From: Thermoplasmatota archaeon
Lineage (GTDB): Archaea; Thermoplasmatota; Thermoplasmata; UBA10834
Assembly: GCA_040751795.1 (NCBI GenBank)
Contig: JBFMHR010000001.1
Span: forward strand, 256,001 to 320,000
DNA: 64,000 bases
Direction of reading: 5' to 3'
The notes under the pieces are model-generated. The model was not told the DNA's origin, did not search any database, and worked only from the letters and a program-made list of their open reading frames with translations. Made by a program: the position numbers and the translations under genes. Within the stretch, counting starts at the first letter, position 1, and every line of letters begins with the position of its first letter. This document shows, in pieces, positions 39,630 to 57,756 of this stretch.

Positions 39630-40937
39630 GTGAGCGCGGTGGAGAAGGTAGTCGTCATCGGAGGTGGCATCGCAGGGATACAGGCATCCCTGGACCTCGC
39701 GGACAGGGGGTTCGAGGTCCACCTCGTTGAGAGGAGCCCGTCCATAGGCGGCCACATGGCGCAGCTCGACAAGACCTTCCCCACGAACGACTGCTCCATG
39801 TGCATCCTGTCGCCCAAGATGATCATGTGCGCCGACCACACGAACATCAAGCTCCACACCTACTCCGAAGTCCAGGCGGTCACGGGGGACTTCCCGAGGT
39901 TCAAGGTCGCGATCAGGGAGAAGGCCCGCTTCGTCGATGTCAAGAGGTGCACCGGCTGCGGCGACTGCATAGCCAAGTGCCCCGTGAAGGTGCCGTGGGA
40001 GTTCGAGGAGGGGCTGGCCCAGAGGAAGGCCATATACCTCCCGTTCCCCCAGGCCGTCCCGAGGAAGGTCACGATTGATGGCGAGCGGTGCCGCATGATA
40101 CAGAGCAAGAAGTGCGGCGTGTGCAAGAAGGTCTGCCAGGCCGGGGCGATCGACTACGACCAGAAGGACTCGGTGGTGGAGGTCGAGGCCTCGGCGATAG
40201 TGGTGGCCGCGGGTTTCGAGCTCATGGACGCCACCGTGATGTCGCAGTATGGCCTCGGCGCGTGCAAGGACGTCGTCACCTCCCTGCAGCTCGAGAGGAT
40301 CCTGTCCGCGTCGGGCCCGACCGGGGGGCACCTCGCCAGGCCCTCGGACCACAAGGAGCCCAGGAAGCTAGCCTTCGTCCAGTGCGTAGGCTCCAGGGAC
40401 GCGCACTCCCACGGCTACTGCAGCAGCGTCTGCTGCATGTACGCGACGAAGGAGTCCATACTCGCCAGGGAGCACGCGCCGGGCCTCGAGACGGCCATAT
40501 TCTACATGGACATGAGGGCGACGGGCAAGGGCTTCCAGGAGTTCGTCTCCAGGGCGAGGCAGAACTACGGCGTAAGGTACATCAGGTCCAGGCCCGCCAG
40601 GGTGCAGTCCGCGGCGGACGGCACCGGGGTCCTCGTCAACTACGAGACCAGCGGCCTCACGGGAGAGTCCGTCACCGAGGAGTTCGACATGCTCGTGCTC
40701 TGCCCAGCGTTGATACCGCCGAAGGGTGCGAAGGAGCTCTCCGCCCTGCTGGGGGTCGCCCTCGACGAGGACGGGTTCATCGACACCCCCGACATCTCCA
40801 GGCCCGTGGACACCTCCAGGAAGGGGGTCCTCGCCTGCGGGTTCGTCAGCGGCCCCATAGACATCCCGGACTCGGTCTCTCAGGCGTCCGCCGCCGCGGC
40901 CAGGGCCGCGGAGCTCATCGAGGGGGGTGCGAAGTGA
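39630..40937 (+). CDS. hdrA: HdrA-like flavoprotein 1 (FAD domain + inserted 2x 4Fe-4S; lacks HdrA N- and C-terminal domains)
   Basis: IGGGIAG, AQLDKTFPTNDC, CTGCGDC, FVQCVGSR, CSSVCCMYATK. Confidence 0.88.
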   Translation: MSAVEKVVVIGGGIAGIQASLDLADRGFEVHLVERSPSIGGHMAQLDKTFPTNDCSMCILSPKMIMCADHTNIKLHTYSEVQAVTGDFPRFKVAIREKARFVDVKRCTGCGDCIAKCPVKVPWEFEEGLAQRKAIYLPFPQAVPRKVTIDGERCRMIQSKKCGVCKKVCQAGAIDYDQKDSVVEVEASAIVVAAGFELMDATVMSQYGLGACKDVVTSLQLERILSASGPTGGHLARPSDHKEPRKLAFVQCVGSRDAHSHGYCSSVCCMYATKESILAREHAPGLETAIFYMDMRATGKGFQEFVSRARQNYGVRYIRSRPARVQSAADGTGVLVNYETSGLTGESVTEEFDMLVLCPALIPPKGAKELSALLGVALDEDGFIDTPDISRPVDTSRKGVLACGFVSGPIDIPDSVSQASAAAARAAELIEGGAK

Positions 40938-42628
40938 TGGCCAGGGTGGGCGTGTTCGTCTGCCACTGCGGGCACAACATCGCCTCGACGGTCGACGTCG
41001 AGGCGGTAGTGGAGTTCGCGAAGGGCCTCCCTGGAGTGGCCTACGCGGGGCACAACCTCTACTCCTGCTCCGAGGAGGGCCTCGGCTCGATAAAGAGGAG
41101 CATCGCCGAGAACAAGCTCGACCGGGTCGTGGTCGCGGCGTGCACCCCGAGGACGCACGAGCCCCTCTTCAGGCGCGCGTGCGAGCAGGCGGGCATCAAC
41201 AAGTACCTCTTCGAGTTCGTCAACATACGGGAGCACTGCTCCTGGATACACACAAAGGAGCCCAGGGAGGCGACCGAGAAGGCCAAGAAGCTCGTCGCCA
41301 TGGGCGTCGCCAAGGCGGCCCTCCTCGAGCCGCAGACCGAGGGGGAGTCCGCGGTCCTTCCGGCGGCGGTGGTCATCGGCGGCGGCGTCTCCGGGCTGGC
41401 GGCCGCGGCCTCTCTCGTGGACCAAGGGATCGAGACGCACCTGGTCGAGGCCTCCGACAGGCTGGGCGGGTTGCTCGCCGAGGTGACGACCATCGGCCCC
41501 GAGAGCACCGAAGCGCGCGAAATCATACGCGGCATCGTCAGGAGGCTGGAGGCGTCCCCCAAGGCACACATCCACCTGAGGTCGAGGGTCGCGGAGGCCA
41601 AGGGCTTCGTCGGCAACTTCGAGGTCACAGTCCGCGGCTGCGACAGCGACCTCAAGGTCCCAGCGGGCGCGATCGTGGTCGCGACGGGGACCAAGGAGCT
41701 CGACCCGACGGGCGAGTACGGCTTCGGCCAGAGGCCCGAGGTGGTGACCCAGCTCGAGCTGGAGCGCAGGCTCGCCAGGGGAGAGAGGCCGCGGAGGGTC
41801 GTGTTCATCAACTGCGTCGGGAGCAGGCAGCCCGGGAGGGAGTACTGCTCCAGGGTGTGCTGCAACGTCACCCTGAAGAACGCGCTCATGCTCGCGAAGG
41901 CCTCCCCCGACTCCAGGATACATGTCATACACAGAGACATCATGAGCAGCGGCACCGCGGCGGAGAGGCTGTACAAGGAGGCATCGGAGAGCGGGGTGAA
42001 GTTCCTCAGGTACGGGCTCGAGAGGGTCCCGGAGGTCGTGGCGGGCGGGGACGGGGTGGAGGTCCATGTCTACGACGAGACGCTCGAGGAGACCGTCCAC
42101 CTGGGCGCCGACCTGGTCGTGCTGGCCGTGCCCATGGTCCCTCCGGGGGACTCGGAGGCGACGGCCAAGCTCCTGAAGGTCCCGAGGGACAAGTTCGGCT
42201 TCTTCCTCGAGGCTCATGTCAAGCTCAGGCCCGTCGAGTTCGCCACCGACGGCGTCTTCATCTGCGGCTCGGCGAGGTGGCCGGTCAGCGCAAGGGAGTG
42301 CATCTGGCAGGGAATGGCCGCGGCCGCCAAGGCGTCCATACCCATCAAGGAGGGCAGGGTCGTCATACAGGCCATCACCGCCGAGGTCGACCCCGACAAG
42401 TGCGCCGCGTGCGGCAACTGCGTCCTCGCCTGCCCGTACGAAGCCATCGAGGTCGTCGAGCAGGACGGGCGCAGGGCGGCCAAGGTCAACGAGGCGCAGT
42501 GCAAGGGCTGCGGCACCTGCGTCGCCGCGTGCCACAACGACGCCGTGAGCCAGAAGGGCTTCACGAGCGGTCAGCTCAGCGCGATGGTCGACGCCCTCGT
42601 CAAGGCGGCGCTGGAGGTGCCGAGATGA
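40937..42628 (+). CDS. hdrA: HdrA-like flavoprotein 2 (N-terminal Cys domain, FAD domain, C-terminal 2x 4Fe-4S)
   Basis: VGVFVCHCG, ACTPRTHE, NIREHCSW, GGGVSG, CVGSR..CSRVCC, CAACGNC, CKGCGTC. Confidence 0.88.
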   Translation: MARVGVFVCHCGHNIASTVDVEAVVEFAKGLPGVAYAGHNLYSCSEEGLGSIKRSIAENKLDRVVVAACTPRTHEPLFRRACEQAGINKYLFEFVNIREHCSWIHTKEPREATEKAKKLVAMGVAKAALLEPQTEGESAVLPAAVVIGGGVSGLAAAASLVDQGIETHLVEASDRLGGLLAEVTTIGPESTEAREIIRGIVRRLEASPKAHIHLRSRVAEAKGFVGNFEVTVRGCDSDLKVPAGAIVVATGTKELDPTGEYGFGQRPEVVTQLELERRLARGERPRRVVFINCVGSRQPGREYCSRVCCNVTLKNALMLAKASPDSRIHVIHRDIMSSGTAAERLYKEASESGVKFLRYGLERVPEVVAGGDGVEVHVYDETLEETVHLGADLVVLAVPMVPPGDSEATAKLLKVPRDKFGFFLEAHVKLRPVEFATDGVFICGSARWPVSARECIWQGMAAAAKASIPIKEGRVVIQAITAEVDPDKCAACGNCVLACPYEAIEVVEQDGRRAAKVNEAQCKGCGTCVAACHNDAVSQKGFTSGQLSAMVDALVKAALEVPR

Positions 42629-43044
42629 CCGAGTTCAGCCCGACCATACTCGCATTCTGCTGCAACTGGTGTTCCTATGCGGGAGCTGACCTGGCGGGGG
42701 TCAACAGGCTCCAGATGCCGCCGAACGTCCACGTAATAAGGGTCATGTGCAGCGCGAGCGTCAAGCCCGAGTACGTATTCAAGGCGATATCCCAGGGGAT
42801 CGACGGCGTCCTCATCCTCGGGTGCCACATCGGGGACTGCCACTACCTCACGGGCAACCACAGGACCGCGAAGCGCATCCCAGTCGCCAAGAGGATACTC
42901 AGGGACGCCGGGATCGACGACAGGCGCGTCAGGCTCGACTGGGTCAGCGCGGCCGAGGGGGAGAAGTTCCAGCAGGTCATCACCGAGTTCGTCGGCGAGG
43001 TCAAGGCCTTGGGGCCCAACCCCCTGAGGGAGGTGAGGATGTGA
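42625..43044 (+). CDS. mvhD: MvhD/FlpD [2Fe-2S] subunit
   Basis: FCCNWCSYAGADLAG, RVMCS, GCHIGDCHY..GN, WVSAAEG. Confidence 0.93.
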   Translation: MTEFSPTILAFCCNWCSYAGADLAGVNRLQMPPNVHVIRVMCSASVKPEYVFKAISQGIDGVLILGCHIGDCHYLTGNHRTAKRIPVAKRILRDAGIDDRRVRLDWVSAAEGEKFQQVITEFVGEVKALGPNPLREVRM

Positions 43045-43841
43045 ACGACCTCGCGCGGAGGCTCGTCACCATCGCCTTCGAGGAGCGCGGGGCGGACCGC
43101 CTCCTCCTCATGGCCGAGCGCCACGGGAACGTGGGCCCGGTGATGGTGGAGAAGGGCCAGGACCCGGGCGACGCCAGGGTCGACGTGCCCTACCAGCTCG
43201 TCAACATACTGAGCAACCTGATACCGTTCGTGGGAAGGGCGAAGGTCGCCGTGGTCTGCAGGAGGTGCGACGAGAAGGCCCTGGCGGAGCTCGCGAAGAG
43301 GGGCATCGTCGACGACGCCAGCATCGTCAGGATCGGGCTGGCCTGCACCAAGGAGCAGGTCGAGAGGTGCAGGTGCTCCGACTGCGTCCCGAGCAGGGTG
43401 GACATCGGAGAGCCGGCCGAGCCGTGCCCCGAGGACACCCTCGCGTCCGAGCTCTCGTCGATGGGCACCGAGGAGAGGTCCGCGTTCTGGATGCGCCAGT
43501 TCCGCAAGTGCAACAAGTGCTTCGGCTGCACCCTGAACTGCCCGGTCTGCTTCTGCGACGACTGCGTGCTCGAGGAGAGGACATACACGCCCGAGGAGGG
43601 CATCCCGCCCGGGCCAGCGTTCCACCTCATCAGGTCGTTCCACCTGGCGGACAAGTGCGTCGAGTGCGGGGAGTGCGAGCGCTCGTGCCCGGCGGACATA
43701 CCGCTGCTCACGTTCAGGAAGATGGTGAACAGGGACATGAGGGACCTGTTCGGCTACACGGCCGGCGACAGGGAGAGGAGGAGCCCCCTCCTGACCACGC
43801 TGGACGACCAGCCCCTGGAGGATGACGGCCATGCGTGTTGA
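43041..43841 (+). CDS. Short FdhB-like iron-sulfur subunit
   Basis: VCRRCD, CNKCFGCTLNCPVCFC, FHLIRSFH, CVECGECERSCP. Confidence 0.78.
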   Translation: MNDLARRLVTIAFEERGADRLLLMAERHGNVGPVMVEKGQDPGDARVDVPYQLVNILSNLIPFVGRAKVAVVCRRCDEKALAELAKRGIVDDASIVRIGLACTKEQVERCRCSDCVPSRVDIGEPAEPCPEDTLASELSSMGTEERSAFWMRQFRKCNKCFGCTLNCPVCFCDDCVLEERTYTPEEGIPPGPAFHLIRSFHLADKCVECGECERSCPADIPLLTFRKMVNRDMRDLFGYTAGDRERRSPLLTTLDDQPLEDDGHAC

Positions 43842-45867
43842 GCACGTCCTGACCACATGCCCCTACTGCGGGACCGGCTGCAGGTTCTACCTGCAGGTGG
43901 TGGACGGGAGGCTCGTCGGCGTCGTCCCGTGCAAGACGGACGAGATCAGCCAGGGGCGGCTGTGCATCAAGGGCTACAACGCCCACGCGTTCGTGCAGCA
44001 CCCGGAGAGGCTCACTCACCCCATGGTCAGGGAGGGCGGGCAGCTCAGGAGGGCGACCTGGGACGAGGCGCTGGACAGGGTCGTGTCAGAGGTCAGGAGG
44101 ATCTCCGCCGAGAACGGCCCCGACTCCGTCGTCGTGCTCGCGTCCGCGAAGTGCACCAACGAGGAGAACTACCTCTTCCAGAAGCTGGCCAGGGCGGCGA
44201 TAGGCACCAACAACGTCGACCACTGCGCCAGGCTATGCCACGCGTCCACCGTCGCGGGGCTCCTGATGTCCTTCGGGAGCGGCGCGATGACCAACACGAT
44301 CCCCGAGTTCGAGGGGGCGGACTGCGTCCTGGTGACCGGCTCGAACACCCTCGAGGCGCACCCCATCATAGGCGCGCGCATGCTCCGCGCGTACGACAGG
44401 GGGGCGAAGGTCATCGTCGTGGACCCGAGGGACACGCCCCTGTCGAGGATCGCGTATAGCGCCCTCCACCAGCAGCCAGGCACCGACATCGCCTGGATAA
44501 ACGGCATGATCAGGGTCATCATCGAGGAGGGGCTCCACGACGAAGCGTTCATCGCCGAGCGCACCTCCGGGTTCGAGGAGCTCAGGAGGACCGTCGAGCC
44601 CTACACCCCCGAGAAGGTCCAGGAGATCACCCAGATACCCAAGGAGAGGCTCGTCGACGCCGCGCGCACCTACGCGAACGCCGAGAGGGCGATGATCGCC
44701 TACGCGATGGGGGTGACGCAGCACAGCAACGGCACCAACATAGTGCGCGCGCTAGCGAACCTCGCGATGGTCACGGGCAACATAGGGAGGGAGTCGACAG
44801 GCGTGAACCCGCTCAGGGGCCAGTGCAACGTCCAGGGCGCGTGCGACGCCGGCGGGCTCCCCGACCTGTTCCCCGGCTACCAGAGGGTCGAGGACGCTGA
44901 GGCGAGGAAGAAGTTCGAGGCGGCCTGGGGCAAGGCTCTCCCGCCGACCAAGGGCACCACCCTGACCTGCGCGATCAAGGATGCGCTCACGGGCAAGGTC
45001 AAGGCCATGGTCATATTCGGCGAGAACCCGATGCTCTCCGATCCCGACCTCGCCCACGTCCAGGAGGCGATGGAGGAGCTCGAGTTCCTCGCCGTCGCCG
45101 AGATATTCCCCACGGACACGACGAGGCTCGCCGACGTCGTCCTCCCCGGCGCATGCTACGCGGAGAAGGACGGGACGTTCACCTCGACCGACAGGGCCAT
45201 CCGGCCGGTCCACAAGGCGGTCGACCCGCCGGGCGAGGCCAGGCCCGACTGGGAGATCGCGTGCGAGCTGGGCCGGAGGCTCGGCGGGCAGGGCTTCGAC
45301 TTCGGGTCGCCCTCCGAGGTGATGGACGAGATGGCGAAGCTCGCGCCGCAGTACGGCGGCGTCAGCCACGAGAGGGCGGACAGGCAGGTCCTGAGGTGGC
45401 CTTGCCCGAACAAGGAGCACGCGGGCACGCCGGTGCTGCACGTGGGCGGGTTCAAGATGGGCAGGGGGGTCCTGGTCCCGGTCGACCACGCGCCCCCCGC
45501 GGAGGAGACCTCCGATGAGTACCCGCTGATACTGACGACCGGGAGGAACCTATTCCACTTCCACACCGGCACGATGACCAGGAGGTCTCCGAAGCTGGAG
45601 CGGGAGGCCCCTTCGCCGTACGTCGAGGTCTGCCCCGCCGACGCTCAGAAGCTCGGCGTGTCGCACGGCGACCGCGTTCGCGTGGCCTCCAGGAGGGGCG
45701 AGATAACCCTCGAGGCGAGGGTGACCGGCTGGATCATGCCGGGGGTCGTGTTCATCCCGTTCCACTACGCCGAGGCGGCCGCGAACAGGCTGACCAACCC
45801 CGCCCTGGACCCCGTGGCGAAGATACCGGAGTTCAAGGTCTGCGCGGTCAGGATGGAAAAGGCGTGA
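43831..45867 (+). CDS. fdhA: Formate dehydrogenase alpha subunit (Mo/W-bisPGD, Cys ligand, cytoplasmic)
   Basis: CPYCGTGC, LCIKG, DHCARLCHASTV, LRGQCNVQG, PEFK; no Tat signal. Confidence 0.93.
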   Translation: MRVEHVLTTCPYCGTGCRFYLQVVDGRLVGVVPCKTDEISQGRLCIKGYNAHAFVQHPERLTHPMVREGGQLRRATWDEALDRVVSEVRRISAENGPDSVVVLASAKCTNEENYLFQKLARAAIGTNNVDHCARLCHASTVAGLLMSFGSGAMTNTIPEFEGADCVLVTGSNTLEAHPIIGARMLRAYDRGAKVIVVDPRDTPLSRIAYSALHQQPGTDIAWINGMIRVIIEEGLHDEAFIAERTSGFEELRRTVEPYTPEKVQEITQIPKERLVDAARTYANAERAMIAYAMGVTQHSNGTNIVRALANLAMVTGNIGRESTGVNPLRGQCNVQGACDAGGLPDLFPGYQRVEDAEARKKFEAAWGKALPPTKGTTLTCAIKDALTGKVKAMVIFGENPMLSDPDLAHVQEAMEELEFLAVAEIFPTDTTRLADVVLPGACYAEKDGTFTSTDRAIRPVHKAVDPPGEARPDWEIACELGRRLGGQGFDFGSPSEVMDEMAKLAPQYGGVSHERADRQVLRWPCPNKEHAGTPVLHVGGFKMGRGVLVPVDHAPPAEETSDEYPLILTTGRNLFHFHTGTMTRRSPKLEREAPSPYVEVCPADAQKLGVSHGDRVRVASRRGEITLEARVTGWIMPGVVFIPFHYAEAAANRLTNPALDPVAKIPEFKVCAVRMEKA

Positions 45868-47184: not shown

Positions 47185-47225
47185 CTTATCTCTCCGGATT
47201 CTCTTGTGTGTGACCATTCTCAGCT

Positions 47226-50022: not shown

Positions 50023-50913
50023 TCAGCCCTTCCAGCCGTGGTGGATCTTCGCGGCCTTGACCGTGTTCTTCATCAGCATCGTTATGGTCATCGGGCCGAC
50101 GCCGCCGGGGACCGGGGTTATCGCCTTGGCCTTCTCCTTGACGGACTCGAAGTCGACGTCTCCCACGAGGCGGCAGCCGCCCTTCGCGCTCGGGTCGTTG
50201 ATCCTGTTGACGCCCACGTCTATGACGACGACTCCCTCCCTCACCATGTCCGCCTTCACGAAGTTGGGCACGCCCATCGCCGCGATGAGGATGTCCGCCT
50301 GCCTCGAGAACTTGGGCAGGTCCTGCGTGCGCGAGTGGCATATGGTCACGGTCGCGTCGGCCCCCGCCGCCTTCTGGAGCAGTATGTTGGTGATGGGCTT
50401 GCCGACGATGTTGCTCCTGCCCAGGACGACGACGTGCTTGCCCTTGGGGTCGTTGCCGCTCCTCACGAGGAGCTCCTGTATCCCCGCCGGGGTGCATGGC
50501 AGATAGGACTCCGCCCCGACGACCATCCGTCCCACGTTCATCGGGTGGAAGCCGTCGACGTCCTTGCCGGGGTCGATCCTGAGCAGCACCTTCTCCTCGC
50601 TGATGTGCTTCGGGAGCGGGAGCTGGACGAGTATGCCGTCGAACCTCTTGTCCGCGTTGTACTTGTCTATCATCGAGAGGAGCTCCGCCTCCTTGGTGTC
50701 GGCCGGGAGGCGTATCGTCTCGGAGTGCAGCCCGAGCTCCTGGCACGCCTCGCCCTTCTTGCGGACGTACACCTGCGACGCGGGGTCCTCCCCGACTATG
50801 ATCACTACCAGGCCCGGCGTCACGCCGCCGGCCTTCATCCTGGAGACCTCCTCCTTGAGCTCGGCCCGGATGCTCTTCGCCACCTCGTTCCCGCTGATGA
50901 CCTGCGCAGACAT
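50023..50913 (-). CDS. folD: Methylene-THF dehydrogenase/methenyl-THF cyclohydrolase
   Basis: YVRKK, ILVQLPLP, KDVDG, PCTP, GRSNIVGKP, PGGVGPMT. Confidence 0.96.
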   Translation of the reverse strand: MSAQVISGNEVAKSIRAELKEEVSRMKAGGVTPGLVVIIVGEDPASQVYVRKKGEACQELGLHSETIRLPADTKEAELLSMIDKYNADKRFDGILVQLPLPKHISEEKVLLRIDPGKDVDGFHPMNVGRMVVGAESYLPCTPAGIQELLVRSGNDPKGKHVVVLGRSNIVGKPITNILLQKAAGADATVTICHSRTQDLPKFSRQADILIAAMGVPNFVKADMVREGVVVIDVGVNRINDPSAKGGCRLVGDVDFESVKEKAKAITPVPGGVGPMTITMLMKNTVKAAKIHHGWKG

Positions 50914-51061
50914 TCCCAACGCCTCCTGAGACGGGATGCACGCGATTTACTTAAGGTTTCGCGGGCCGGGGACGCGGTCCGGCCTGGCGCGTCGGCGGCG
51001 CATCGGATTTCCGAAAGGCTTTATTACGCAGTCATTATACCCCCTTAAAAGGGGGCTCAAA

Positions 51062-52906: not shown

Positions 52907-54145
52907 GTGACCAACGAAGTCCTCGTGATTGGAGGGGGGCCCGCCGGCCTCACGGCGGCGAAGGCCCTCGTTGACAGGGGAGCGAACGTCGTGCTCGTCG
53001 AAGGCTCCGAGTCGCTCGGCGGGATGGCCAGGGAGCTGACGTGCAAGGGCCTCGCCGAGTGCAGGGACTGCGGCGCGTGCTTCGCCATCGACAGGGCGGC
53101 CGAGGTGCTCAGGGAGCCGTCCGTCGAGGTGCTGCTCCTCTCCGAGGTCACGTCCGTGAAGGGCGGGGCCGGCTCCTACGAGGCCAGGATCAAGGTCTCC
53201 CCCAGGTACGTGACCGACGACTGCATCGGATGCGGCAGGTGCGTGGAGGCGTGCCCGGCCGAGGGCAAGGCTATATTCCCGCCCAAGGGCACCGGCCAGC
53301 CCAGGCTCCACTGGATCGACAGGCAGAGGTGCCTCCACTTCAGGAAGGGCGGGTGCGAGAAGTGCGCCGAGGTATGCCCGACGAAGGCCATCGACTTCGA
53401 CGACAGGGCGACGAACGTCACCAGGAAGGCGGGGTCCGTCGTCTACGCCACGGGGATGGAGCCCGTGGACGCCTGCGAGGTGAGGAGGCTCGGCTGCGGC
53501 ACCCTCCAGGACGTGGTGTCGAGCGTCGACGCCGAGAGGATGCTCAACGAGAGGGGGAGGCTGCACCGCCCCTCGGACGGCGCCGCCCCGAAGAAGGTGG
53601 CGGTGATGCAGTGCGTCGGCTCCAGGTCCGTGAAGAACGGCGTCGACTACTGCTCCAAGTTCTGCTGCAAGTACGCAACGAAGATCTCCCAGCTCATCAT
53701 GGACGCAGACCCGGAGGTCGCCCTGGACTTCTACTTCATGGACCTGAGGACGCTCTACGAGCCCCAGGACGACTTCAAGAGGTGGGCCAAGGACCGGAAG
53801 ACGGTCCGGCTCATCAGGAGCATGCCCGCGGTGGTGCAGCCAGGGAAGGACGGGAAGCTCGTGGTCAAGGCCGCGACCGAGACGGACACCGAGGTCCAGG
53901 AGAACGAGTACGACATGGTCCTCCTGTCCGTGGGGATGAGGCCCAAGGGGGCCTCGGACGAGCTCGCCAAGGCGCTGGGAATATCCACCGACGAGAGGGG
54001 GTTCGCCGAGGCCGGCCCCGGGCTGGCGGAGAAGGGTGTCCACGTCATCGGCGCCGTCTCGGCGCCCATGGACATAGAGGAGGCCGCGGTCAGGGCTCTG
54101 GCCGAGGCTTCCAGGGTGAGGCTCACGAAGGAGGTGGCGCGATGA
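52907..54145 (+). CDS. hdrA: HdrA-like flavoprotein 3 (FAD domain + inserted ferredoxin)
   Basis: IGGGPAG, CIGCGRCVEACP, CEKCAEVCP, MQCVGSR, CSKFCCKYATK. Confidence 0.85.
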   Translation: MTNEVLVIGGGPAGLTAAKALVDRGANVVLVEGSESLGGMARELTCKGLAECRDCGACFAIDRAAEVLREPSVEVLLLSEVTSVKGGAGSYEARIKVSPRYVTDDCIGCGRCVEACPAEGKAIFPPKGTGQPRLHWIDRQRCLHFRKGGCEKCAEVCPTKAIDFDDRATNVTRKAGSVVYATGMEPVDACEVRRLGCGTLQDVVSSVDAERMLNERGRLHRPSDGAAPKKVAVMQCVGSRSVKNGVDYCSKFCCKYATKISQLIMDADPEVALDFYFMDLRTLYEPQDDFKRWAKDRKTVRLIRSMPAVVQPGKDGKLVVKAATETDTEVQENEYDMVLLSVGMRPKGASDELAKALGISTDERGFAEAGPGLAEKGVHVIGAVSAPMDIEEAAVRALAEASRVRLTKEVAR

Positions 54146-55719
54146 AGGCCAGGATACAGGTCGTCGCCTGCAGGTGCTGCACCGAGATGCCGCCCCTGCT
54201 GGACATGTCGAGGCTCATGGGCGTCGCCTCGGAGAGGGAGCTGGTCGTGTCGTCCCTCCTGGTCGACCGCGTCTGCGACGGGAAGAGCATCAAGCAGGTG
54301 GTCGCGGAGGCGAAGGAGCGCGAGGTGGACAGGGCCATGATCCTCGCGTGCCAGAGGAAGGACGTGAACCCGGCGCTCCTGTCCGCGTACGTGAAGACGG
54401 GCGTCAACGAGTTCCTGGTCGAGTACGTGGACCTGAGGGACGAGGTCGTCCTGCCGCACCTGGGCGACGCGAAGAGGGCCCAGGCCAAGGCAGAGGCCAA
54501 GGTCCGCGCCGGGCTCGACAGGCTCACGATGCTCGCTCCCCTGGAGAAGGCCCGCGAGGAGATGAGGACGGCGAACGTCGTCGTCCTCGGCGGGGGCGCG
54601 TCGGGGCGCAGGGCGGCCGAGGTCGCGGCCGCGCAGGGCGCGCACACGGTCATAATAGAGAAGGGGGTCAAGGACTACAAGGCCCCGGGCGTCATCATGC
54701 CACACTCCACTCTGGCGGGAGCTAAGGGGTACGGGGGCAACTTCGTCCTCACCGTCAAGGCCGGCGAGAAGCTCGAGGAGCTGGAGTGCGCGGCGGTCGT
54801 CGTCGCCACCGGCGGAGGGTGGGCCGAGCTGAAGGGCCCCCTCGCCAAGGCGTGCAAGTCCGCGGTGCCGCTCTACAGGCTCCACGAGCAGATGGCCGCG
54901 GGCGGGGTGCCCAAGGGCCCGGTCGTCATAGTCGACACGCCGGACCCGGCGGGGAAGGGCCTCGCCGTGATGGACTTCGCGTGGGACGAGAGCCTCGAGC
55001 TCGCCTCCGAGGTCAAGAGGAGGGCGCCCCAGGAGGAGGTCTATGTCATATTCCAGGAGATGCGCGCGTTCGGCCTCTCAGAGCTCGCGTACAAGGACGC
55101 GGCCGAGCTGGGCGTCAGGTTCGTGAGGTACGACAGGTCGGGCGGGCCCAAGATAGATCCCAAGGAGCCGAGCAAGCTCACGGTCAAGGACCTCTCACAG
55201 GGAGAGGTCCTGTCCATACCGTTCGGCTCGCTCGCCTTCGCCGCGATCCCCGCCAACAGGGACAACGAGGGCATCGCGGACGCGCTGAGGATACCGATGT
55301 CCCCCGAGGGAGGCGTGAGGAGGGGGAGCATCCAGAGGTGGCCGGTGAGCACCCCCAGGCCGGGGGTGTTCGTCTGCGGCTCGGCGATGTTCCCGAAGTC
55401 GAGGGAGATGGCCGAGGCGGAGGGCGAGGCGGCTGGCCTCATGGCCGGCAGGTTCGCCATGCAGGGCGCGATAGAGTACGGGGGCGCCGTCGCCGAGGTC
55501 GCGCAGGAGAAGTGCTCCGCGTGCCTCACATGCGTCAGGACCTGCCCGTACGAGGCGCCCTACATCGGTGCGGCGGGCAAGATCGAGATCCGCGCCCAGG
55601 CGTGCCAGGGCTGCGGGATGTGCGTGGGCATCTGCCCCAGCAAGGCGCTGGAGCTCCGCGGGTCCACGGACGACCAGATCGCGCAGGAGACGCGGACCAT
55701 GCTCGGGGGTGACTTCTGA
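54142..55719 (+). CDS. Degenerate HdrA-like protein 4 with C-terminal 2x 4Fe-4S
   Basis: VVACRCC N-terminal domain, GGGASG, PGVFVCG, CSACLTCVRTCP, CQGCGMCVGICP; central CVGSR/CC motifs absent. Confidence 0.8.
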   Translation: MKARIQVVACRCCTEMPPLLDMSRLMGVASERELVVSSLLVDRVCDGKSIKQVVAEAKEREVDRAMILACQRKDVNPALLSAYVKTGVNEFLVEYVDLRDEVVLPHLGDAKRAQAKAEAKVRAGLDRLTMLAPLEKAREEMRTANVVVLGGGASGRRAAEVAAAQGAHTVIIEKGVKDYKAPGVIMPHSTLAGAKGYGGNFVLTVKAGEKLEELECAAVVVATGGGWAELKGPLAKACKSAVPLYRLHEQMAAGGVPKGPVVIVDTPDPAGKGLAVMDFAWDESLELASEVKRRAPQEEVYVIFQEMRAFGLSELAYKDAAELGVRFVRYDRSGGPKIDPKEPSKLTVKDLSQGEVLSIPFGSLAFAAIPANRDNEGIADALRIPMSPEGGVRRGSIQRWPVSTPRPGVFVCGSAMFPKSREMAEAEGEAAGLMAGRFAMQGAIEYGGAVAEVAQEKCSACLTCVRTCPYEAPYIGAAGKIEIRAQACQGCGMCVGICPSKALELRGSTDDQIAQETRTMLGGDF

Positions 55720-56138
55720 TGTCCGAGAGGAGGCCGAAGGTCGTCGGGTTCTGCTGCGAGAGGCACGGGCTGGACGCGGCCGTGCTCGCCGCGAGGTCCG
55801 GCAAGGGCTGCGACGCCGGCGTGAGGATCATCAAGGTGCCGTGCAGCGGCAGGGTCGACGGGCTGCACATACTGCAGGCTCTCGAGGACGGCGCGGACGC
55901 AGTGTTCGTCCTGGGCTGCCTCGAGAAGAACTGCCACTACGACACCGGCTCGATCGAGGGGAGGAAGCGCGTCGAGTACGTGAAGTCCACACTCGAGGGG
56001 CTGGGCATCGAAAAGGAGAGGGTCGAGATGTTCAACGCCTCCTCCACGATGGCCTGGCGGTTCCCGGAGATCGTGTCCAGGATGGTCGAGGTCGCCAAGC
56101 GCCTCGGCCCGATAGGCAAGGGGGGCGGTGACCGATGA
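55719..56138 (+). CDS. mvhD: MvhD/FlpD [2Fe-2S] subunit (divergent)
   Basis: GFCCERH, KVPCSGRV, GCLEKNCHY..GS. Confidence 0.85.
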   Translation: MSERRPKVVGFCCERHGLDAAVLAARSGKGCDAGVRIIKVPCSGRVDGLHILQALEDGADAVFVLGCLEKNCHYDTGSIEGRKRVEYVKSTLEGLGIEKERVEMFNASSTMAWRFPEIVSRMVEVAKRLGPIGKGGGDR

Positions 56139-56839
56139 TAGTCGCGAAGAGGAAGCCGATGGCGGAGATAGCCGAGATGGTCGCCCCGTACAAGAGGGTC
56201 AAGGTCATAGGCTGCAGGAGCTGCGTCGCGATATGCCTCGCCGGGGGCGAGAAGGAGGTCAAGGCGCTCGCGTCCGCCCTCAGGCTCAAGGCCAGGAAGG
56301 AGGGCAGGAGGCAGGAGTTCGAGGGCCTCGTCGTCGAGAGGCAGTGCGAGAAGGAGTGGGTCAAGGAGGTCGAGGACAAGGTGATGGACTCCGACCTCGT
56401 CCTCTCGATGGCCTGCTCGCTCGGCGCCCAGACCATCGGCGACATGTACCCCAAGAAGCTCGTCTTCCCCGCCCTGAACACCGGCATATTCGGGGTCCCC
56501 GAGGAGCAGGGCGTCTGGTCGGAGAAGTGCGTCGGCTGCGGCAACTGCGTCATACACACCACCGGCGGCATCTGCCCGATAGCCAGGTGCGCCAAGAGCA
56601 TGCTCAACGGGCCGTGCGGCGGCTCCTCGAACGGCAAGTGCGAGGTCAACCTCGAGGTCGACTGCGCGTGGTACGCGATACACGAGAGGCTGAAGCTGCA
56701 GAACAGGCTGGAGCTGATCGAGCAGGTCTCGCCCCCGAAGGACTGGTCCACCAGCCACTCGGGCGGGAGGAGGGTCTACGTCCGCGAGGACGCTAGGCTG
56801 ACGCAGCACCAGAAGAAGGGCAGGGAGGCGGTGAGATGA
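56135..56839 (+). CDS. metV: Methylene-THF reductase small subunit MetV
   Basis: GCRSCVAICLAGG, RQCE, CVGCGNC, GICPIARCAKSMLNGPCGG, CAW. Confidence 0.9.
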   Translation: MIVAKRKPMAEIAEMVAPYKRVKVIGCRSCVAICLAGGEKEVKALASALRLKARKEGRRQEFEGLVVERQCEKEWVKEVEDKVMDSDLVLSMACSLGAQTIGDMYPKKLVFPALNTGIFGVPEEQGVWSEKCVGCGNCVIHTTGGICPIARCAKSMLNGPCGGSSNGKCEVNLEVDCAWYAIHERLKLQNRLELIEQVSPPKDWSTSHSGGRRVYVREDARLTQHQKKGREAVR

Positions 56840-57756
56840 AGGCGGGCAGCAACCTCGAGAAGGTATTCGAGTCGGGCAGGTTCGCCGTCACCGCGGAGAT
56901 AGGACCGCCCCAGTCAGCCAACCCCGACCCGCTCGTCCACCACGCCAAGATGCTCAGGGGAGCGGCCGATGCGTTCAACCTCACAGACAACCAGACCGCG
57001 GTCGTCAGGCTCTCCAGCATCGCGAGCGCGGTGCTCATAATGAGGGAGGGCATCGAGCCCGTCATACAGATGACCTGCAGGGACAGGAACAGGATCGCGC
57101 TGCAGAGCGACCTCCTCGGCGCGAGCGCGCTCGGGATCAGGAACGTGCTCTGCCTCACCGGCGACCACCAGACCTTCGGGAACGAGAAGGGGGCGAAGAG
57201 CGTCTTCGACTTCGACTCGATATCCGAGCTCCAGGTCTTCGACAGGCTGAGGCGCGAGGGGAAGCAGCCCGGGGGCCAGGAGATCAAGGACCCGCCGAAG
57301 GTGTACCTCGGCTGCGCCGAGAACCCCTTCGCCACCCCCTACGAGTGGAGGGCGGCCAGGCTCGCCAAGAAGGTGGCGGCCGGCGCCGACTTCGTCCAGA
57401 CCCAGGCCATATTCGACATGGACATGTTCGAGAAGTGGATGGACGAGGTGAGGGCGAGGGGCCTCGACAAGAAGGTGCACATCCTCGCAGGGGTCATACC
57501 GATGAAGACCGCGGGCGCCGCCAGGTACATGAAAAACAAGGTGCCCGGGATGATAGTCCCCAACCACATCATAGACAGGATGAAGAACGCGAAGGACGCC
57601 AAGGAGGAGGGGATCAGGCTCTGCATCGAGCAGATCGAGACCCTCAAGAACATCAAGGGCGTCCACGGCGTGCACATCATGGCGGTGATGTGGGAGGAGA
57701 TGGTCCCGAGGATAGTCCAGGAGGCCGGGCTGATGCCCAGGCCCTCCTTCGAGTGA
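56836..57756 (+). CDS. metF: Methylene-THF reductase
   Basis: VTAEIGPP, TDN, CRDRNRIALQSD, LTGD, QTQ, GVHIM. Confidence 0.94.
   Translation: MKAGSNLEKVFESGRFAVTAEIGPPQSANPDPLVHHAKMLRGAADAFNLTDNQTAVVRLSSIASAVLIMREGIEPVIQMTCRDRNRIALQSDLLGASALGIRNVLCLTGDHQTFGNEKGAKSVFDFDSISELQVFDRLRREGKQPGGQEIKDPPKVYLGCAENPFATPYEWRAARLAKKVAAGADFVQTQAIFDMDMFEKWMDEVRARGLDKKVHILAGVIPMKTAGAARYMKNKVPGMIVPNHIIDRMKNAKDAKEEGIRLCIEQIETLKNIKGVHGVHIMAVMWEEMVPRIVQEAGLMPRPSFE

What the first reader, a model, noticed from the sequence alone, without database searches (positions are those of the whole stretch)
39630..57756. 18-kb archaeal C1/acetate island: THF methyl branch with two parallel HdrA-HdrA-MvhD modules and no HdrBC
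Seen: fdhA, fhs, folD, metV and metF (CO2/formate to methyl-THF on tetrahydrofolate, not methanopterin) are clustered with AMP-forming acsA, beta-carbonic anhydrase and an OFA-type antiporter. The same three-gene cassette (short HdrA, long HdrA, MvhD) occurs twice, once before fdhB/fdhA and once before metV/metF. Established: characterised HdrA complexes (HdrABC-MvhAGD, HdrABC-MvhD-FdhAB, Moorella MetFV-HdrABC-MvhD) include HdrB/C; none is in this window. Inference: the two modules may couple formate/CO2 and methylene/methyl-THF redox, possibly by flavin bifurcation without a heterodisulfide. acsA plus a formate-type antiporter would suit the oxidative (acetate- or methyl-consuming) direction, but direction cannot be read from sequence.
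Basis: partly seen in the sequence, partly recalled or inferred. Interest (0 to 1): 0.85.

Follow-up and report, generated by a model that had tools for sequence, protein, structure and literature searches.

The report
Split HdrA modules in folate pathway
An uncultured archaeon carries a conserved gene island for a folate-based acetate pathway in which formate dehydrogenase and methylene-folate reductase are each wired to a two-piece version of a known electron-splitting flavoprotein, a variant of systems already predicted in bacteria and other archaea.

Summary
The genes are real and lie at the stated coordinates: fdhA, acs, beta-carbonic anhydrase, an MFS carrier, folD, fhs, metV, metF, and two paralogous cassettes of short HdrA, long HdrA and MvhD (26-35% identical).

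Three details need correction:
- "fdhB" is a 266-aa mini-FdhB without the flavin domain.
- The carrier fits the SfMCT lactate-carrier model better than the oxalate/formate model.
- The window does hold a CCG protein of the HdrD/TfrB type (32715-33881). The genome also has canonical HdrABC and 10 CCG proteins in all.

The short and long HdrA have complementary parts. Short has Cys197 and the inserted ferredoxin domain. Long has the N- and C-terminal domains. This is the pattern proposed for heterodimeric HdrA in ANME, and it matches the two halves of the fused HdrA of bacterial Hdr-type methylene-THF reductase.

The island is conserved in its Thermoplasmata order (cassette 2 in 44 of 49 genomes, mini-FdhB in 33 of 49). 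No HdrB/C lies within 10 kb in 0 of 25 archaeal loci, against 37 of 55 mostly bacterial loci.

Verdict: a new split, HdrBC-less archaeal variant of a known kind. Bifurcation "without heterodisulfide" is possible but not shown. Interest is moderate.

The parts
39630..40937 (+). Short HdrA 1 (435 aa): FAD (TrxR-like) domain with inserted ferredoxin domain. It has no N-terminal and no C-terminal domain. It keeps the Cys194/Cys197 motif, the TrxR-domain 4Fe-4S motif, E356 and K409.
   Evidence: Matches HdrA of 5ODC at chain 143-563, E 3.3e-140. Matches HdrA2 profile positions 138-563. Paralog alignment.
40934..42628 (+). Long HdrA 1 (564 aa; start GTG 40934 or ATG 40937): N-terminal cluster domain, FAD domain without inserted ferredoxin, and C-terminal ferredoxin domain. 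It has no Cys194/197. It keeps the TrxR-domain cluster motif, E356 and K409.
   Evidence: Matches 5ODC chain 5-234 and 318-649, skipping the inserted ferredoxin domain..
42625..43044 (+). MvhD 1 (139 aa)
   Evidence: Pfam FlpD, 174 bits. Matches HdrA2 profile 647-774.
43041..43841 (+). Mini-FdhB (266 aa from GTG 43041; searches used 43044-43841): an iron-sulfur subunit related to FdhB but lacking the FrhB-type flavin/F420 domain.
   Evidence: No FrhB_FdhB Pfam hit. Matches 7BKB_E only at 94-130 and 275-379, E 9e-25. Model pLDDT 81.9. Best fold matches are 7bkb_E and 8rvu_E, TM 0.72/0.48. The family has a uniform length of about 260 aa.
43822..45867 (+). FdhA, molybdo/tungstopterin formate dehydrogenase catalytic subunit (681 aa), Cys type
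   Evidence: TIGR01591, 825.6 bits against cut-off 666.25. Pfam Molybdopterin, Molydop_binding and Molybdop_Fe4S4. The Cys at the position of the Sec of E. coli FdhH is read from the sequence; the motif is recalled.
45913..47217 (-). MFS monocarboxylate carrier of the OFA/SfMCT group (434 aa)
   Evidence: NF049980 SfMCT, 385.6 bits against 320. TIGR00890 and TIGR04259 score below their cut-offs. Pfam MFS_1.
47226..47783 (-). Beta-class carbonic anhydrase (185 aa)
   Evidence: Pfam Pro_CA, 127.7 bits
47861..49615 (-). AMP-forming acetate-CoA ligase (584 aa)
   Evidence: NF003313, 845 bits against cut-off 729
50023..50919 (-). FolD, methylene-THF dehydrogenase/cyclohydrolase (298 aa)
   Evidence: Pfam THF_DHG_CYH and THF_DHG_CYH_C. 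NCBIfam FolD models.
51062..52780 (+). Fhs, formate-THF ligase (572 aa)
   Evidence: Pfam FTHFS, 842.8 bits. NF010030, 815.5 bits against 652.
52907..54145 (+). Short HdrA 2 (412 aa from GTG 52907; the ORF opens at 52844): FAD domain with inserted ferredoxin domain. It keeps Cys at the 194/197 site, the TrxR-domain cluster motif, E356 and K409.
   Evidence: Matches HdrA2 profile 137-556. Start judged from orthologs. Invariant Cys listed. Alignment.
54142..55719 (+). Long HdrA 2 (525 aa): N-terminal domain, Rossmann FAD motif and C-terminal ferredoxin domain. It has no inserted ferredoxin, no Cys194/197, no TrxR-domain cluster motif and no K409.
   Evidence: Matches 5ODC only at chain 4-174 and 412-634. 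Alignment. The family is 62-95% identical and always 525-527 aa.
55719..56138 (+). MvhD 2 (139 aa)
   Evidence: Pfam FlpD, 128.3 bits. Five invariant Cys in 16 orthologs.
56135..56839 (+). MetV (234 aa), FeS/Zn subunit of methylene-THF reductase
   Evidence: Pfam DUF5981 (MTHFR C-terminal), 122 bits. 13 invariant Cys. No relative in the PDB by sequence.
56836..57756 (+). MetF (306 aa), methylene-THF reductase
   Evidence: Pfam MTHFR, 143.8 bits
32715..33881 (+). Context, not in the operons: HdrD/TfrB-like protein (ferredoxin domain plus 2 CCG domains, 388 aa), behind a B12-radical-SAM gene and mobB.
   Evidence: Pfam CCG x2 and Fer4_8/17. Best NCBIfam match is TfrB at 252.8 bits, below its cut-off of 385. 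The block is kept upstream of cassette 1 in 10 of 15 fetched loci.
18883..28818 (-). Context: Fpo/Nuo-like membrane complex (three antiporter-like subunits, NuoK, an extended NuoI, NuoH, NuoD, NuoC). No NuoEFG genes were seen among the ORFs scanned.
   Evidence: Pfam hits. NCBIfam NuoD and NuoI.

Best explanation
WHAT IT IS
The stretch is a conserved island of a non-methanogenic Thermoplasmata archaeon. It encodes the methyl branch of a bacterial-type tetrahydrofolate Wood-Ljungdahl pathway. Two operons each encode an asymmetric HdrA pair plus MvhD.
- The short HdrA has the FAD domain, the inserted ferredoxin domain and Cys197.

Shown: the two subunits carry complementary parts.
Inferred: they form a heterodimer that keeps one complete copy of the electron path of the methanogen HdrA homodimer.

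One operon continues with a flavin-less mini-FdhB and FdhA. The other continues with MetV and MetF. They are split-gene archaeal counterparts of bacterial HdrBCA-MvhD-FdhBA and of the Hdr-type methylene-THF reductase HdrCBA-MvhD-MetVF.

HOW IT LIKELY WORKS (inferred)
- MvhD is the adaptor that wires FdhB'A or MetVF to the HdrA flavin.
- The inserted ferredoxin domain of the short subunit is the ferredoxin port.
- The complexes link CO2/formate and methylene/methyl-THF to ferredoxin by flavin-based bifurcation or confurcation.
- No CCG subunit (HdrB/D type) is encoded in cis. The short subunits keep the FeS site that feeds HdrC in methanogens, and the E356/K409 signature. I therefore think a third branch exists and is supplied in trans by one of the genome's 10 CCG proteins.
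- A heterodisulfide-free mechanism is therefore not established.
For: DOMAIN COMPLEMENTARITY
- Cys194/197 and the inserted ferredoxin domain occur only in the short forms (5 of 5 in this genome).
- The N-terminal and C-terminal domains occur only in the long forms.
- This is the pattern proposed for heterodimeric HdrA in PMC9012536 (section 15).

MATCH TO THE FUSED BACTERIAL HdrA
- It has the same two halves as the fused HdrA of S. ovata and M. thermoacetica. E/K is conserved only in the extra N-terminal TrxR module of S. ovata (PMC9430772 section 5), as in cassette 2 here.
- In a tree of 43 HdrA halves, short halves and long halves form two groups (SH-aLRT 86 and 93). Split and fused forms are interleaved in parallel in both groups.

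OPERON AND CONSERVATION
- Tight operons with overlapping start and stop codons.
- Conserved in 44 of 49 and 33 of 49 genomes of the order.
- Cassette 1 is complete in 14 of 15 fetched loci.
- A FlpD (MvhD) hit precedes the metV hit in most of the 68 of 80 loci that show a MetV hit, by eye. Exceptions include L049 (metVF upstream of HdrA) and L095 (metV directly after a fused HdrA).

PATHWAY CONTEXT
- A fused CooS-AcsB, CFeSP, RACo and AcsE are present.
- No McrA and no FTR were found.

CANDIDATES FOR A TRANS PARTNER
- 10 CCG proteins and a canonical HdrACB-MvhD operon.
- On contig C23 the same cassette type is followed by an HdrD-like gene or by a NiFe hydrogenase.
- Invariant TrxR-cluster Cys in short HdrA 2 orthologs.
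Against: - No CCG gene lies in either operon, nor within 10 kb, in 0 of 25 archaeal loci, while 37 of 55 other loci have one. This conserved absence can equally mean that no CCG partner is used.
- The canonical HdrBC sits in its own operon with a full-length HdrA.
- The window's HdrD-like gene lies beside an Fpo-like complex. It may belong to that complex, as proposed for Methanomassiliicoccales (passages of the preprint 10.1101/2020.03.09.984617).
- Long HdrA 2 has lost the TrxR cluster motif and K409, so half of the pair may be only a scaffold.
- No expression data, no interaction data and no biochemistry exist for this lineage.
- E356 in the long subunits cannot be aligned with certainty.
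- Where MetV docks (on MvhD or at the HdrC site) is not known.
Confidence: 0.5

Rival explanations
1. HdrBC-free bifurcation. The five operon-encoded subunits are complete in themselves apart from a donor. MetVF takes the place of HdrBC as the high-potential acceptor. MvhD docks a donor module made elsewhere, either the MvhAG hydrogenase of contig C23 or FdhB'A. H2 or formate would then reduce methylene-THF and ferredoxin together, with no thiol/disulfide involved.
For: - No HdrB/C/D hit in 0 of 25 archaeal loci, against 37 of 55 others.
- MvhD is kept although no hydrogenase is in the operon.
- Short HdrA 2 keeps the exit cluster and E/K.
- A NiFe hydrogenase follows another cassette of this type on C23.
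- The potentials allow it: about -414 mV (H2) for the donor, against -200 mV (methylene-THF) and about -500 mV (ferredoxin) for the acceptors. The -200 and -414 mV values are quoted in PMC9430772 and PMC9586279. The ferredoxin value is recalled.
Against: - Bacterial loci with a single TrxR-cluster motif in the fused HdrA (L078, L080) still carry HdrC, HdrB and MetVF. There MetVF cannot sit at the only HdrC site.
- In nearly all loci with both genes, mvhD comes just before metV. This suits docking through MvhD.
- Cassette 1 would still lack an acceptor.
Confidence: 0.2
2. Linear, non-bifurcating wiring. The HdrA pair and MvhD only carry electrons between ferredoxin and MetVF or FdhB'A, with the flavin acting as a one-electron/two-electron gate. 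This would give a ferredoxin-dependent methylene-THF reductase and a ferredoxin-dependent formate dehydrogenase/CO2 reductase.
For: - No third partner is encoded in cis.
- MetVF-type enzymes use reduced ferredoxin in vitro, and non-bifurcating HdrA homologs exist (PMC9430772).
- Formate and ferredoxin are close in potential.
- Long HdrA 2 is degenerate.
Against: - The E356/K409 signature and the exit cluster are conserved in short HdrA 1 and 2 and in long HdrA 1.
- MetVF alone already accepts ferredoxin electrons, so three extra subunits conserved in 44 of 49 genomes would be hard to explain.
- Reducing methylene-THF with ferredoxin alone wastes about 300 mV.
Confidence: 0.15
3. A mainly biosynthetic C1 unit. 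The cassette with MetVF serves folate-dependent anabolism (methyl groups, purines, serine/glycine) rather than catabolic acetate formation or oxidation.
For: - The same arrangement of split cassette, MetVF, FolD and Fhs occurs in 5 Methanomassiliicoccales-labelled genomes. Four of them have McrA. Two of those four show no CdhC.
- GlyA (11367-12581) and PurH (62464-64000) lie in the same window.
- Folate enzymes are read as anabolic in Methanosarcinaceae (PMC9012536 passages).
Against: - This genome has a full CODH/ACS, CFeSP, AcsE and RACo cluster and a dedicated Fdh cassette.
- The island also holds acs, a carbonic anhydrase and a carboxylate carrier.
- Completeness of the five compared genomes is not given.
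Confidence: 0.1

Closest known systems
Hdr-type (fourth type) methylene-THF reductase HdrCBA-MvhD-MetVF of Moorella thermoacetica and Sporomusa ovata (PMC9430772; sections and passages read)
   Same: - A MetV-MetF core directly behind mvhD.
- An HdrA with two TrxR-type FAD modules. The module with the N-terminal and C-terminal domains lacks the inserted ferredoxin domain.
- In S. ovata the E/K signature is found only in the extra N-terminal module, as in cassette 2.
   Different: - Here the two HdrA modules are separate genes.
- The short one carries an inserted ferredoxin domain. The S. ovata module is described without one.
- There is no GltD/NAD(P)H insert.
- No hdrC or hdrB lies in the cluster.
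- The host is an archaeon.
metVF-hdrA-mvhD cluster of type I Acetothermia, with hdrBC and mvhAG encoded together elsewhere (PMC9586279; passages read; its Fig. S5 and Dataset S2 not seen)
   Same: MetVF is colocalised with HdrA and MvhD but not with HdrBC. HdrBC and a group 3c hydrogenase are encoded elsewhere in the genome.
   Different: - It is bacterial.
- From the passages I cannot tell whether its HdrA is split or fused.
- No paired Fdh cassette is described in the passages read.
Tandem or fused HdrA paralogs of ANME archaea, proposed to form heterodimers (PMC9012536, section 15 read)
   Same: [quoted passage not shown] The other has Cys197 but no N-terminal domain. The C-terminal ferredoxin domains are also complementary. 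FdhAB-like genes lie in some clusters.
   Different: - The ANME clusters are discussed in the context of CoM-S-S-CoB and often include HdrBC or HdrD.
- They are not linked to MetVF cassettes in the text I read.
- The ANME FdhA homologs are described as very distant from characterised enzymes, whereas this FdhA passes the TIGR01591 cut-off.
Methanogen FdhAB-MvhD-HdrABC complex (PDB 7BKB) and Elp-Hdr complex (PDB 8RVU)
   Same: The chain FdhA, FdhB-type iron-sulfur subunit, MvhD, HdrA. The mini-FdhB model finds 7bkb_E and 8rvu_E as its only strong fold matches.
   Different: - The FdhB here lacks about 110-145 residues, including the FrhB-type flavin/F420 part.
- HdrA is a short/long pair rather than one full-length protein.
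- No HdrBC lies in the operon.
QmoAB of sulfate reducers (resemblance recalled from memory; only a search listing seen)
   Same: A short HdrA-like flavoprotein next to a long one that is associated with an MvhD-like module.
   Different: No QmoC-type membrane subunit and no aprBA lie next to the cassettes. The partners here are FdhB'A and MetVF. No sequence comparison with Qmo proteins was made.

Membership tests
Hdr-type methylene-THF reductase (HdrCBA-MvhD-MetVF) | Adjacent metV and metF | tested here: met
   Pfam DUF5981 and MTHFR; the genes overlap by 4 nt
Hdr-type methylene-THF reductase (HdrCBA-MvhD-MetVF) | mvhD directly upstream of metV | tested here: met
   FlpD, 128 bits, at 55719-56138. 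The same order is seen in the related loci.
Hdr-type methylene-THF reductase (HdrCBA-MvhD-MetVF) | HdrA with two TrxR-type FAD modules; the one with the N- and C-terminal domains lacks the inserted ferredoxin domain | tested here: met
   Met, but spread over two genes. The description of the family feature comes from PMC9430772 section 5.
Hdr-type methylene-THF reductase (HdrCBA-MvhD-MetVF) | hdrB and hdrC in the same cluster | tested here: not met
   None in the operon. Found in 0 of 20 and 0 of 5 archaeal loci, against 37 of 55 other loci.
Hdr-type methylene-THF reductase (HdrCBA-MvhD-MetVF) | E356/K409 signature in at least one FAD module | tested here: met
   Short HdrA 2 has both. Long HdrA 2 lacks K409.
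Hdr-type methylene-THF reductase (HdrCBA-MvhD-MetVF) | Physical association of MetVF with the Hdr/MvhD subunits | not testable with these tools
   No verdict could be drawn from modelling (see Tried and rejected). It needs a pull-down or co-purification.
Heterodimeric tandem HdrA (as proposed for ANME, PMC9012536) | One paralog with the N-terminal cluster domain but without Cys197 | tested here: met
   Long HdrA 1 and 2
Heterodimeric tandem HdrA (as proposed for ANME, PMC9012536) | Partner paralog without the N-terminal domain but with Cys197 | tested here: met
   Short HdrA 1 (motif NDCSMC aligned to chain 192-197 of 5ODC) and short HdrA 2
Heterodimeric tandem HdrA (as proposed for ANME, PMC9012536) | Complementary presence of the C-terminal ferredoxin domain | tested here: met
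   Present only in the long forms
Heterodimeric tandem HdrA (as proposed for ANME, PMC9012536) | The two proteins actually form a heterodimer | not tested
Natural fusions of short and long forms (C23, 1011 and 1012 aa; 51 of 55 other loci) are indirect support.
Methanogen FdhAB-MvhD-HdrABC | FdhA of the formate dehydrogenase alpha family | tested here: met
   TIGR01591, 825.6 bits against 666.25
Methanogen FdhAB-MvhD-HdrABC | FdhB with FrhB-type flavin/F420 domains | tested here: not met
   No PF04422/PF04432 hit at E up to 0.01. The alignment skips chain 131-274. TM by target length is 0.48.
Methanogen FdhAB-MvhD-HdrABC | HdrB and HdrC subunits, and one full-length HdrA | tested here: not met
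   The operon has a short and a long HdrA and no CCG protein
QmoABC | QmoC-type membrane subunit and aprBA neighbourhood | tested here: not met
   The genes next to the cassettes are FdhB'A, MetVF, Fhs and Tpt1. The definition of Qmo is recalled.
QmoABC | Sequence membership of the short and long HdrA in the QmoA and QmoB families | not tested
   No Qmo reference sequence or model was used
Bacterial-type tetrahydrofolate Wood-Ljungdahl pathway | Fdh, Fhs, FolD, MetF, AcsE, CFeSP and CODH/ACS all present | tested here: met
   Window genes. Contig C45 holds a fused Prismane plus CdhC protein of 1380 aa, two CdhD-type proteins, RACo and a Pterin_bind protein.
Bacterial-type tetrahydrofolate Wood-Ljungdahl pathway | No methanopterin branch and no MCR | tested here: met
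   FTR and MCR_alpha: 0 matches in a 92.78%-complete genome. Only these two markers were searched.

The most novel reading that the evidence does not exclude
The five-subunit complexes are complete HdrBC-free bifurcating enzymes. MetVF (methylene-THF, -200 mV) replaces the heterodisulfide branch. MvhD docks an interchangeable donor (the MvhAG hydrogenase or the flavin-less FdhB'A). The short subunit reduces ferredoxin. The genome's five short-long-MvhD cassettes, followed by FdhB'A, MetVF, an HdrD-like protein or a NiFe hydrogenase, would then form a plug-in hub that couples each redox step of an archaeal folate Wood-Ljungdahl pathway to ferredoxin without any thiol/disulfide carrier.
Probability: 0.2. 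Interest if true: 0.75.

Novelty: new variant of a known kind. Interest (0 to 1): 0.45.

Why it matters
How the strongly exergonic methylene-THF reduction is coupled to energy conservation is still open, and so is how methyl-THF oxidation is driven in the reverse direction. [quoted passage not shown]

A naturally simplified version may be easier to reconstitute. It has two smaller HdrA genes, no HdrBC in the operon and no NAD(P)H insert. It is highly conserved: 62-95% identity in the 120 best clusters for the long subunit.

The complementary domain losses also give a clear structural prediction, namely one working bifurcation unit per heterodimer.

For ecology, it refines the gene-inventory descriptions of sediment Thermoplasmata that carry a folate Wood-Ljungdahl pathway.

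Tried and rejected
1. First ORF choices were wrong frames in this 65% G+C DNA. They gave no Pfam hit, or a hit only at one end: 40927-43044, 42747-43841, 53041-55719, 49678-51048, 49853-50941, 46306-47916, 51301-52974, 54174-54725, 54786-55712 and 43265-43825. Frames were re-called from translations and GC3.

2. The Pfam GA-like hit on the mini-FdhB (25.1 bits against cut-off 25) is taken as chance.

3. Complex prediction with short HdrA 2, MvhD 2 and MetV as the partner gave: VERDICT no answer. The score was 0.47. The control with chain 1 replaced scored 0.30. The two controls with the partner replaced scored 0.00. This counts neither for nor against binding.

4. The look-up of sequencing runs, kind rna, on 52844-57756: no RNA holder was listed. 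Read laying was therefore not used, and there are no expression data.

6. E356 in the long subunits. MAFFT places H, K or G in that column with an E one column later, and phmmer does not align this part of long HdrA 2. I make no claim for E356 there.

7. The phylum-wide sample for the mini-FdhB gave 53 of 401 genomes with a match, G000 among them. Only 4 other genomes match over nearly the full length (37-39% identity). The rest match only the C-terminal cluster part, as ordinary FdhB/FrhB-type proteins would. This count is therefore not a count of the mini form.

8. The idea that the window's HdrD-like gene is a subunit of the cassettes was considered. It is kept upstream in 10 of 15 loci, but so is the whole neighbourhood. 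It is in another transcription unit and lies next to an Fpo-like operon. I leave it open.

9. The QmoAB likeness is recalled and was not tested.

10. Literature searches for the exact architecture in Thermoplasmata found gene-inventory descriptions only: PMC11264602, PMC9239135 and the preprint 10.1101/2020.03.09.984617, of which passages were read. The supplements of these papers and of PMC9586279 and PMC9012536 were not seen, and they may show the clusters.

Full report
WHAT IS THERE

The window is G000:C1:256001-320000, from a genome of 2.05 Mb in 53 contigs, 92.78% complete. Its G+C content is about 65%, so many long ORFs are spurious. Frames were fixed from Pfam hits, translations and GC3.

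Between 39630 and 57756 lie three gene groups:
- Operon 1 (+ strand): short HdrA, long HdrA, MvhD, an FdhB-like protein and FdhA.
- A block on the - strand: an MFS carrier, a beta-carbonic anhydrase, an AMP-forming acetate-CoA ligase and FolD.
- Operon 2 (+ strand): Fhs, short HdrA, long HdrA, MvhD, MetV and MetF, followed by two DUF885 genes.

Family assignments are well above curated cut-offs for FdhA, Acs and Fhs. They are clear by Pfam for FolD, the carbonic anhydrase, MvhD, MetV and MetF. Neighbouring genes in both operons overlap by 1-20 nt.

The two cassettes are old paralogs, not a recent duplication. Identities are 35% (short), 26% (long) and 32% (MvhD).

CORRECTIONS TO THE OBSERVATION

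The "fdhB" gene.
- It encodes a 266-aa protein starting at GTG 43041.
- It has no FrhB/FdhB Pfam domain.
- It aligns to FdhB of PDB 7BKB only at chain residues 94-130 and 275-379 (E 9e-25).
- An AlphaFold model (pLDDT 81.9, pTM 0.80) has only two matches with E up to 0.001. These are FdhB of 7BKB and of the Elp-Hdr complex 8RVU. The TM-score is 0.72 by query length and 0.48 by target length.
- It is therefore an FdhB that has lost roughly the flavin/F420 part.
- The short form is a family of its own. In one search, 140 clusters scored E up to 1e-10. The 120 listed are mostly 240-270 aa long, and none carries a FrhB Pfam domain. Sources name them ferredoxin, 4Fe-4S protein or formate dehydrogenase beta.

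The carrier. It passes the cut-off only for the SfMCT lactate-carrier model and not for the oxalate/formate models.

HdrB/C in the window. The window is not free of Hdr-type CCG proteins. At 32715-33881 lies a protein with a ferredoxin domain and two CCG domains. Its best match is TfrB, below the cut-off. It sits behind a B12-radical-SAM gene and mobB, next to an Fpo/Nuo-like operon at 18883-28818.

ANATOMY OF THE HdrA PAIRS

Measured against HdrA of PDB 5ODC:
- Short HdrA 1 covers chain residues 143-563. This is the FAD domain with the inserted ferredoxin domain.
- Long HdrA 1 covers 5-234 and 318-649. [quoted passage not shown] It skips the inserted ferredoxin domain.
- Long HdrA 2 aligns only at 4-174 and 412-634.

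By my count on the printed alignment, the motif NDCSMC of short HdrA 1 is Cys194/Cys197. Both long forms have no Cys there.

In an alignment of all 13 HdrA modules of this genome:
- Every short form (short HdrA 1, 2 and 3, and two fused N-halves) has this Cys pair and the inserted ferredoxin domain.
- The five long forms paired with a short one lack both. These are long HdrA 1, 2 and 3 and the two fused C-halves. They have the N- and C-terminal domains.
- The unpaired long form at C1:90 kb has Cys at this site.

The TrxR-domain cluster motif (CVGSR...CxxxCC), E356 and K409 are present in short 1, long 1 and short 2. Long HdrA 2 has neither the motif nor K409. In 12 orthologs of short HdrA 2 these Cys are invariant.

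In the MetVF-linked pairs of 3 Thermoplasmata and 5 Methanomassiliicoccales-labelled loci that I inspected, the long partner again lacks the motif. Where the short ORF is whole (3 and 3 loci), the short partner has it.

COMPARISON WITH WHAT IS KNOWN

PMC9012536 (section 15 read).
- It describes tandem or fused HdrA in ANME. [quoted passage not shown] The other has Cys197 but not the N-terminal domain.
- It proposes heterodimers, because in the solved enzyme Cys197 of one protomer completes the N-terminal cluster of the other.

PMC9430772 (section 5 read).
[quoted passage not shown] There is an extra N-terminal TrxR module.
- In S. ovata only that extra module keeps E and K.
- Cassette 2 is thus the same thing in two genes.

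My tree of 43 HdrA halves (366 columns, quick IQ-TREE, SH-aLRT only).
- All long halves fall in one group (support 93).
- All short halves fall in another (86), next to the canonical HdrA.
- The order inside is parallel: cassette 1 type, fused type, cassette 2 type.
- The short/long pair therefore looks old. On this unrooted tree, with some weakly supported forks, split and fused forms seem to have interconverted.

SURVEY OF RELATED LOCI

A profile of the long HdrA 2 family found 488 related stretches in species-representative genomes. The best 80 were kept with 10-kb flanks. They were annotated with ORFs and local BLASTP against this genome's proteins.

- 20 loci are from Thermoplasmata-type MAGs (55-81% identity).
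  - Every one that reaches upstream of the long HdrA shows a separate short-HdrA ORF there. Every one that reaches downstream shows MvhD. Several loci are cut by contig ends.
  - 19 have MetV and 18 have MetF. The missing ones are cut by contig ends.
  - None has a stop-to-stop HdrA ORF of 850 aa or more.
  - 0 of 20 show any HdrB, HdrC or HdrD-like hit.
- 5 loci are labelled Methanomassiliicoccales. They show the same picture, and 0 of 5 have an HdrB/C/D hit.
- 55 other loci are mostly Chloroflexota, Thermoleophilia and Desulfobacterota, plus one uncultured archaeon.
  - 51 have a fused HdrA ORF of 850 aa or more.
  - 44 have MetV and 39 have MetF.
  - 37 have HdrB/C(/D) in the locus.

The split, HdrBC-less form is therefore typical of this archaeal class. 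HdrBC-less clusters also exist in bacteria (for example L048, L073, L085 and L094-L097). They are in print for type I Acetothermia, where hdrBC and mvhAG lie elsewhere (PMC9586279, passages). An HdrBCA-MvhD-FdhBA cluster is in print for Chloroflexi and Desulfobacula (PMC5736913, passages).

CONSERVATION IN THE ORDER

Among the 49 genomes of the order, G000 included:
- Long HdrA 2 is found in 44 at E up to 1e-100 (12 of 12 high-quality genomes). Excluding G000 that is 43 of 45 in family f1 and 0 of 3 in family f52.
- The mini-FdhB is found in 33 at E up to 1e-30 (9 of 12 high-quality genomes).
- 28 other genomes have both, and in 19 both are on one contig.
- In 16 of those 19 the two lie 10.4-11.3 kb apart in the window's order.
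- The three exceptions are one inverted arrangement, one 25 kb apart, and one with the two cassettes in a single co-directional array.

Of 15 stretches fetched around the mini-FdhB:
- 14 show the whole of cassette 1.
- In the fifteenth, the short HdrA is not seen beside a 100-N run.
- 10 keep the upstream block with the HdrD-like gene.

Named relatives include MAGs that papers place in Ca. Gimiplasmatales (UBA10834). These papers describe them, by gene inventory, as non-methanogenic with a folate Wood-Ljungdahl pathway, HdrA-D and MvhAGD (PMC11264602 passages; preprint 10.1101/2020.03.09.984617 passages). I saw no description of the cassette architecture in the passages read.

REST OF THE GENOME

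- McrA and FTR were not found.
- A glycine-cleavage T protein is present.
- On contig C45 lie a fused Prismane-CODH/AcsB protein of 1380 aa, two CFeSP subunits, RACo and an AcsE-like pterin-binding protein.
- An Acd-like ATP-grasp protein is present, and acetate kinase was not found.
- There are 8 MvhD genes and 10 proteins with two CCG domains.
- Contig C23 holds a long array on one strand: canonical HdrA, HdrC, HdrB, MvhD, a fused short-long HdrA (1011 aa), MvhD, an HdrD-like protein, short HdrA, long HdrA, MvhD, a fused short-long HdrA (1012 aa), MvhD, a 127-aa ORF, the NiFe hydrogenase small and large subunits, and a HycI protease.

The genome thus holds five short-long-MvhD units. They are followed by FdhB'A, MetVF, an HdrD-like protein, another cassette, or a hydrogenase.

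HOW IT MOST LIKELY WORKS

Shown:
- The two HdrA of each cassette carry complementary parts.
- They are fused in relatives.
- They stand in operons with MvhD and a substrate module.

Inferred:
- They form a heterodimer with one complete path. The parts are the C-terminal ferredoxin domain and the N-terminal cluster from the long subunit, and Cys197, the FAD, the exit cluster and the inserted ferredoxin domain from the short subunit.
- MvhD is the adaptor for FdhB'A or MetVF. This follows from the solved Fdh-MvhD-Hdr complex, and from the gene order seen in most loci, where mvhD comes just before the partner genes.
- Ferredoxin binds at the inserted ferredoxin domain.

The third branch remains open. 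I give these odds:
- 0.5 that a CCG protein made elsewhere completes a three-branch bifurcating or confurcating enzyme.
- 0.2 that the complexes bifurcate with no CCG partner, with MetVF as the high-potential acceptor and a donor docking at MvhD.
- 0.15 that they are linear ferredoxin-linked enzymes.

A mainly anabolic role (0.1) is raised by the same cassette in Methanomassiliicoccales-labelled genomes. Four of five have McrA, and two of those show no CdhC. Direction cannot be read from the sequence.

VERDICT

The interpretation overstates both the absence of Hdr-type CCG proteins and the novelty. It is a new split, HdrBC-less archaeal variant of Hdr-type formate dehydrogenase and methylene-THF reductase modules. 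The flavin-less mini-FdhB and the degenerate long HdrA 2 are its most distinctive parts. Interest is moderate (0.45).

Noticed in passing
G000 contig C23, about 270386-290680 (loci L115, L116): One-strand array of Hdr genes. In order: canonical HdrA, HdrC, HdrB, MvhD, a fused short-long HdrA (1011 aa), MvhD, an HdrD-like protein, a split short and long HdrA, MvhD, a fused short-long HdrA (1012 aa), MvhD, a 127-aa ORF with no family, NiFe hydrogenase small and large subunits, and a HycI protease. Split and fused forms of the same pair therefore coexist in one genome.
   Followed up: partly
window 18883-28818 (-): Fpo/Nuo-like complex: three antiporter-like subunits, NuoK, a 304-aa NuoI with extra ferredoxin clusters, NuoH, NuoD and NuoC. 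No NuoEFG genes were seen among the ORFs scanned. An HdrD/TfrB-like gene lies 4 kb away. This recalls the Fpo-like plus HdrD scheme proposed for Methanomassiliicoccales.
   Followed up: partly
window 30113-33881 (+): A B12-binding radical SAM protein, a MobB with an FeS domain, and the HdrD/TfrB-like CCG protein stand in a row. The block is kept upstream of cassette 1 in 10 of 15 related loci. MobB could serve the pterin cofactor of FdhA.
   Followed up: partly
window 57769-61147 (+): Two tandem DUF885 genes (554 and 587 aa) directly follow metF. In locus L112 they lie between the two cassettes. Their function is unknown.
   Followed up: no
window 11367-12581 (+) and 62464-64000 (+): An SHMT-family protein (GlyA; weak Pfam score of 92.7 bits) and PurH (AICARFT/IMPCHase) are further folate-dependent enzymes in the same window.
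   Followed up: no
window 9125-9880 (+): A Ras-family small GTPase (Pfam Ras, 100 bits) in an archaeal genome.
   Followed up: no
G000 contig C45, 60097-64239 (locus L113:4097-8239): A single 1380-aa ORF joins a Prismane/CODH domain with the CODH_A_N, CdhC and ACS_CODH_B_C domains, that is, CooS fused to AcsB. Two Methanomassiliicoccales-labelled genomes show open frames of similar length (1369 and 1382 aa) at their CdhC match.
   Followed up: no
G000 contig C34, 81508-84780 (locus L114): A strong pterin-binding protein (286 bits) lies next to an HdrD-like CCG protein and a LarA-type lactate racemase homolog.
   Followed up: no
loci L037, L050, L058, L067, L081: Methanomassiliicoccales-labelled MAGs carry the same split short HdrA, long HdrA, MvhD, MetV and MetF cassette. 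FolD and Fhs lie nearby in L037 and L050, and Fhs in L067; L058 and L081 start inside the cassette. Four of the five genomes have McrA. Two of those four show no CdhC.
   Followed up: partly
locus L112 (G405:C3:32000-51900): In one relative the two cassettes lie in one co-directional array: Fhs, cassette 2, MetVF, two DUF885 genes, cassette 1, FdhB'A. The acs, carbonic anhydrase and carrier block is not between them.
   Followed up: no
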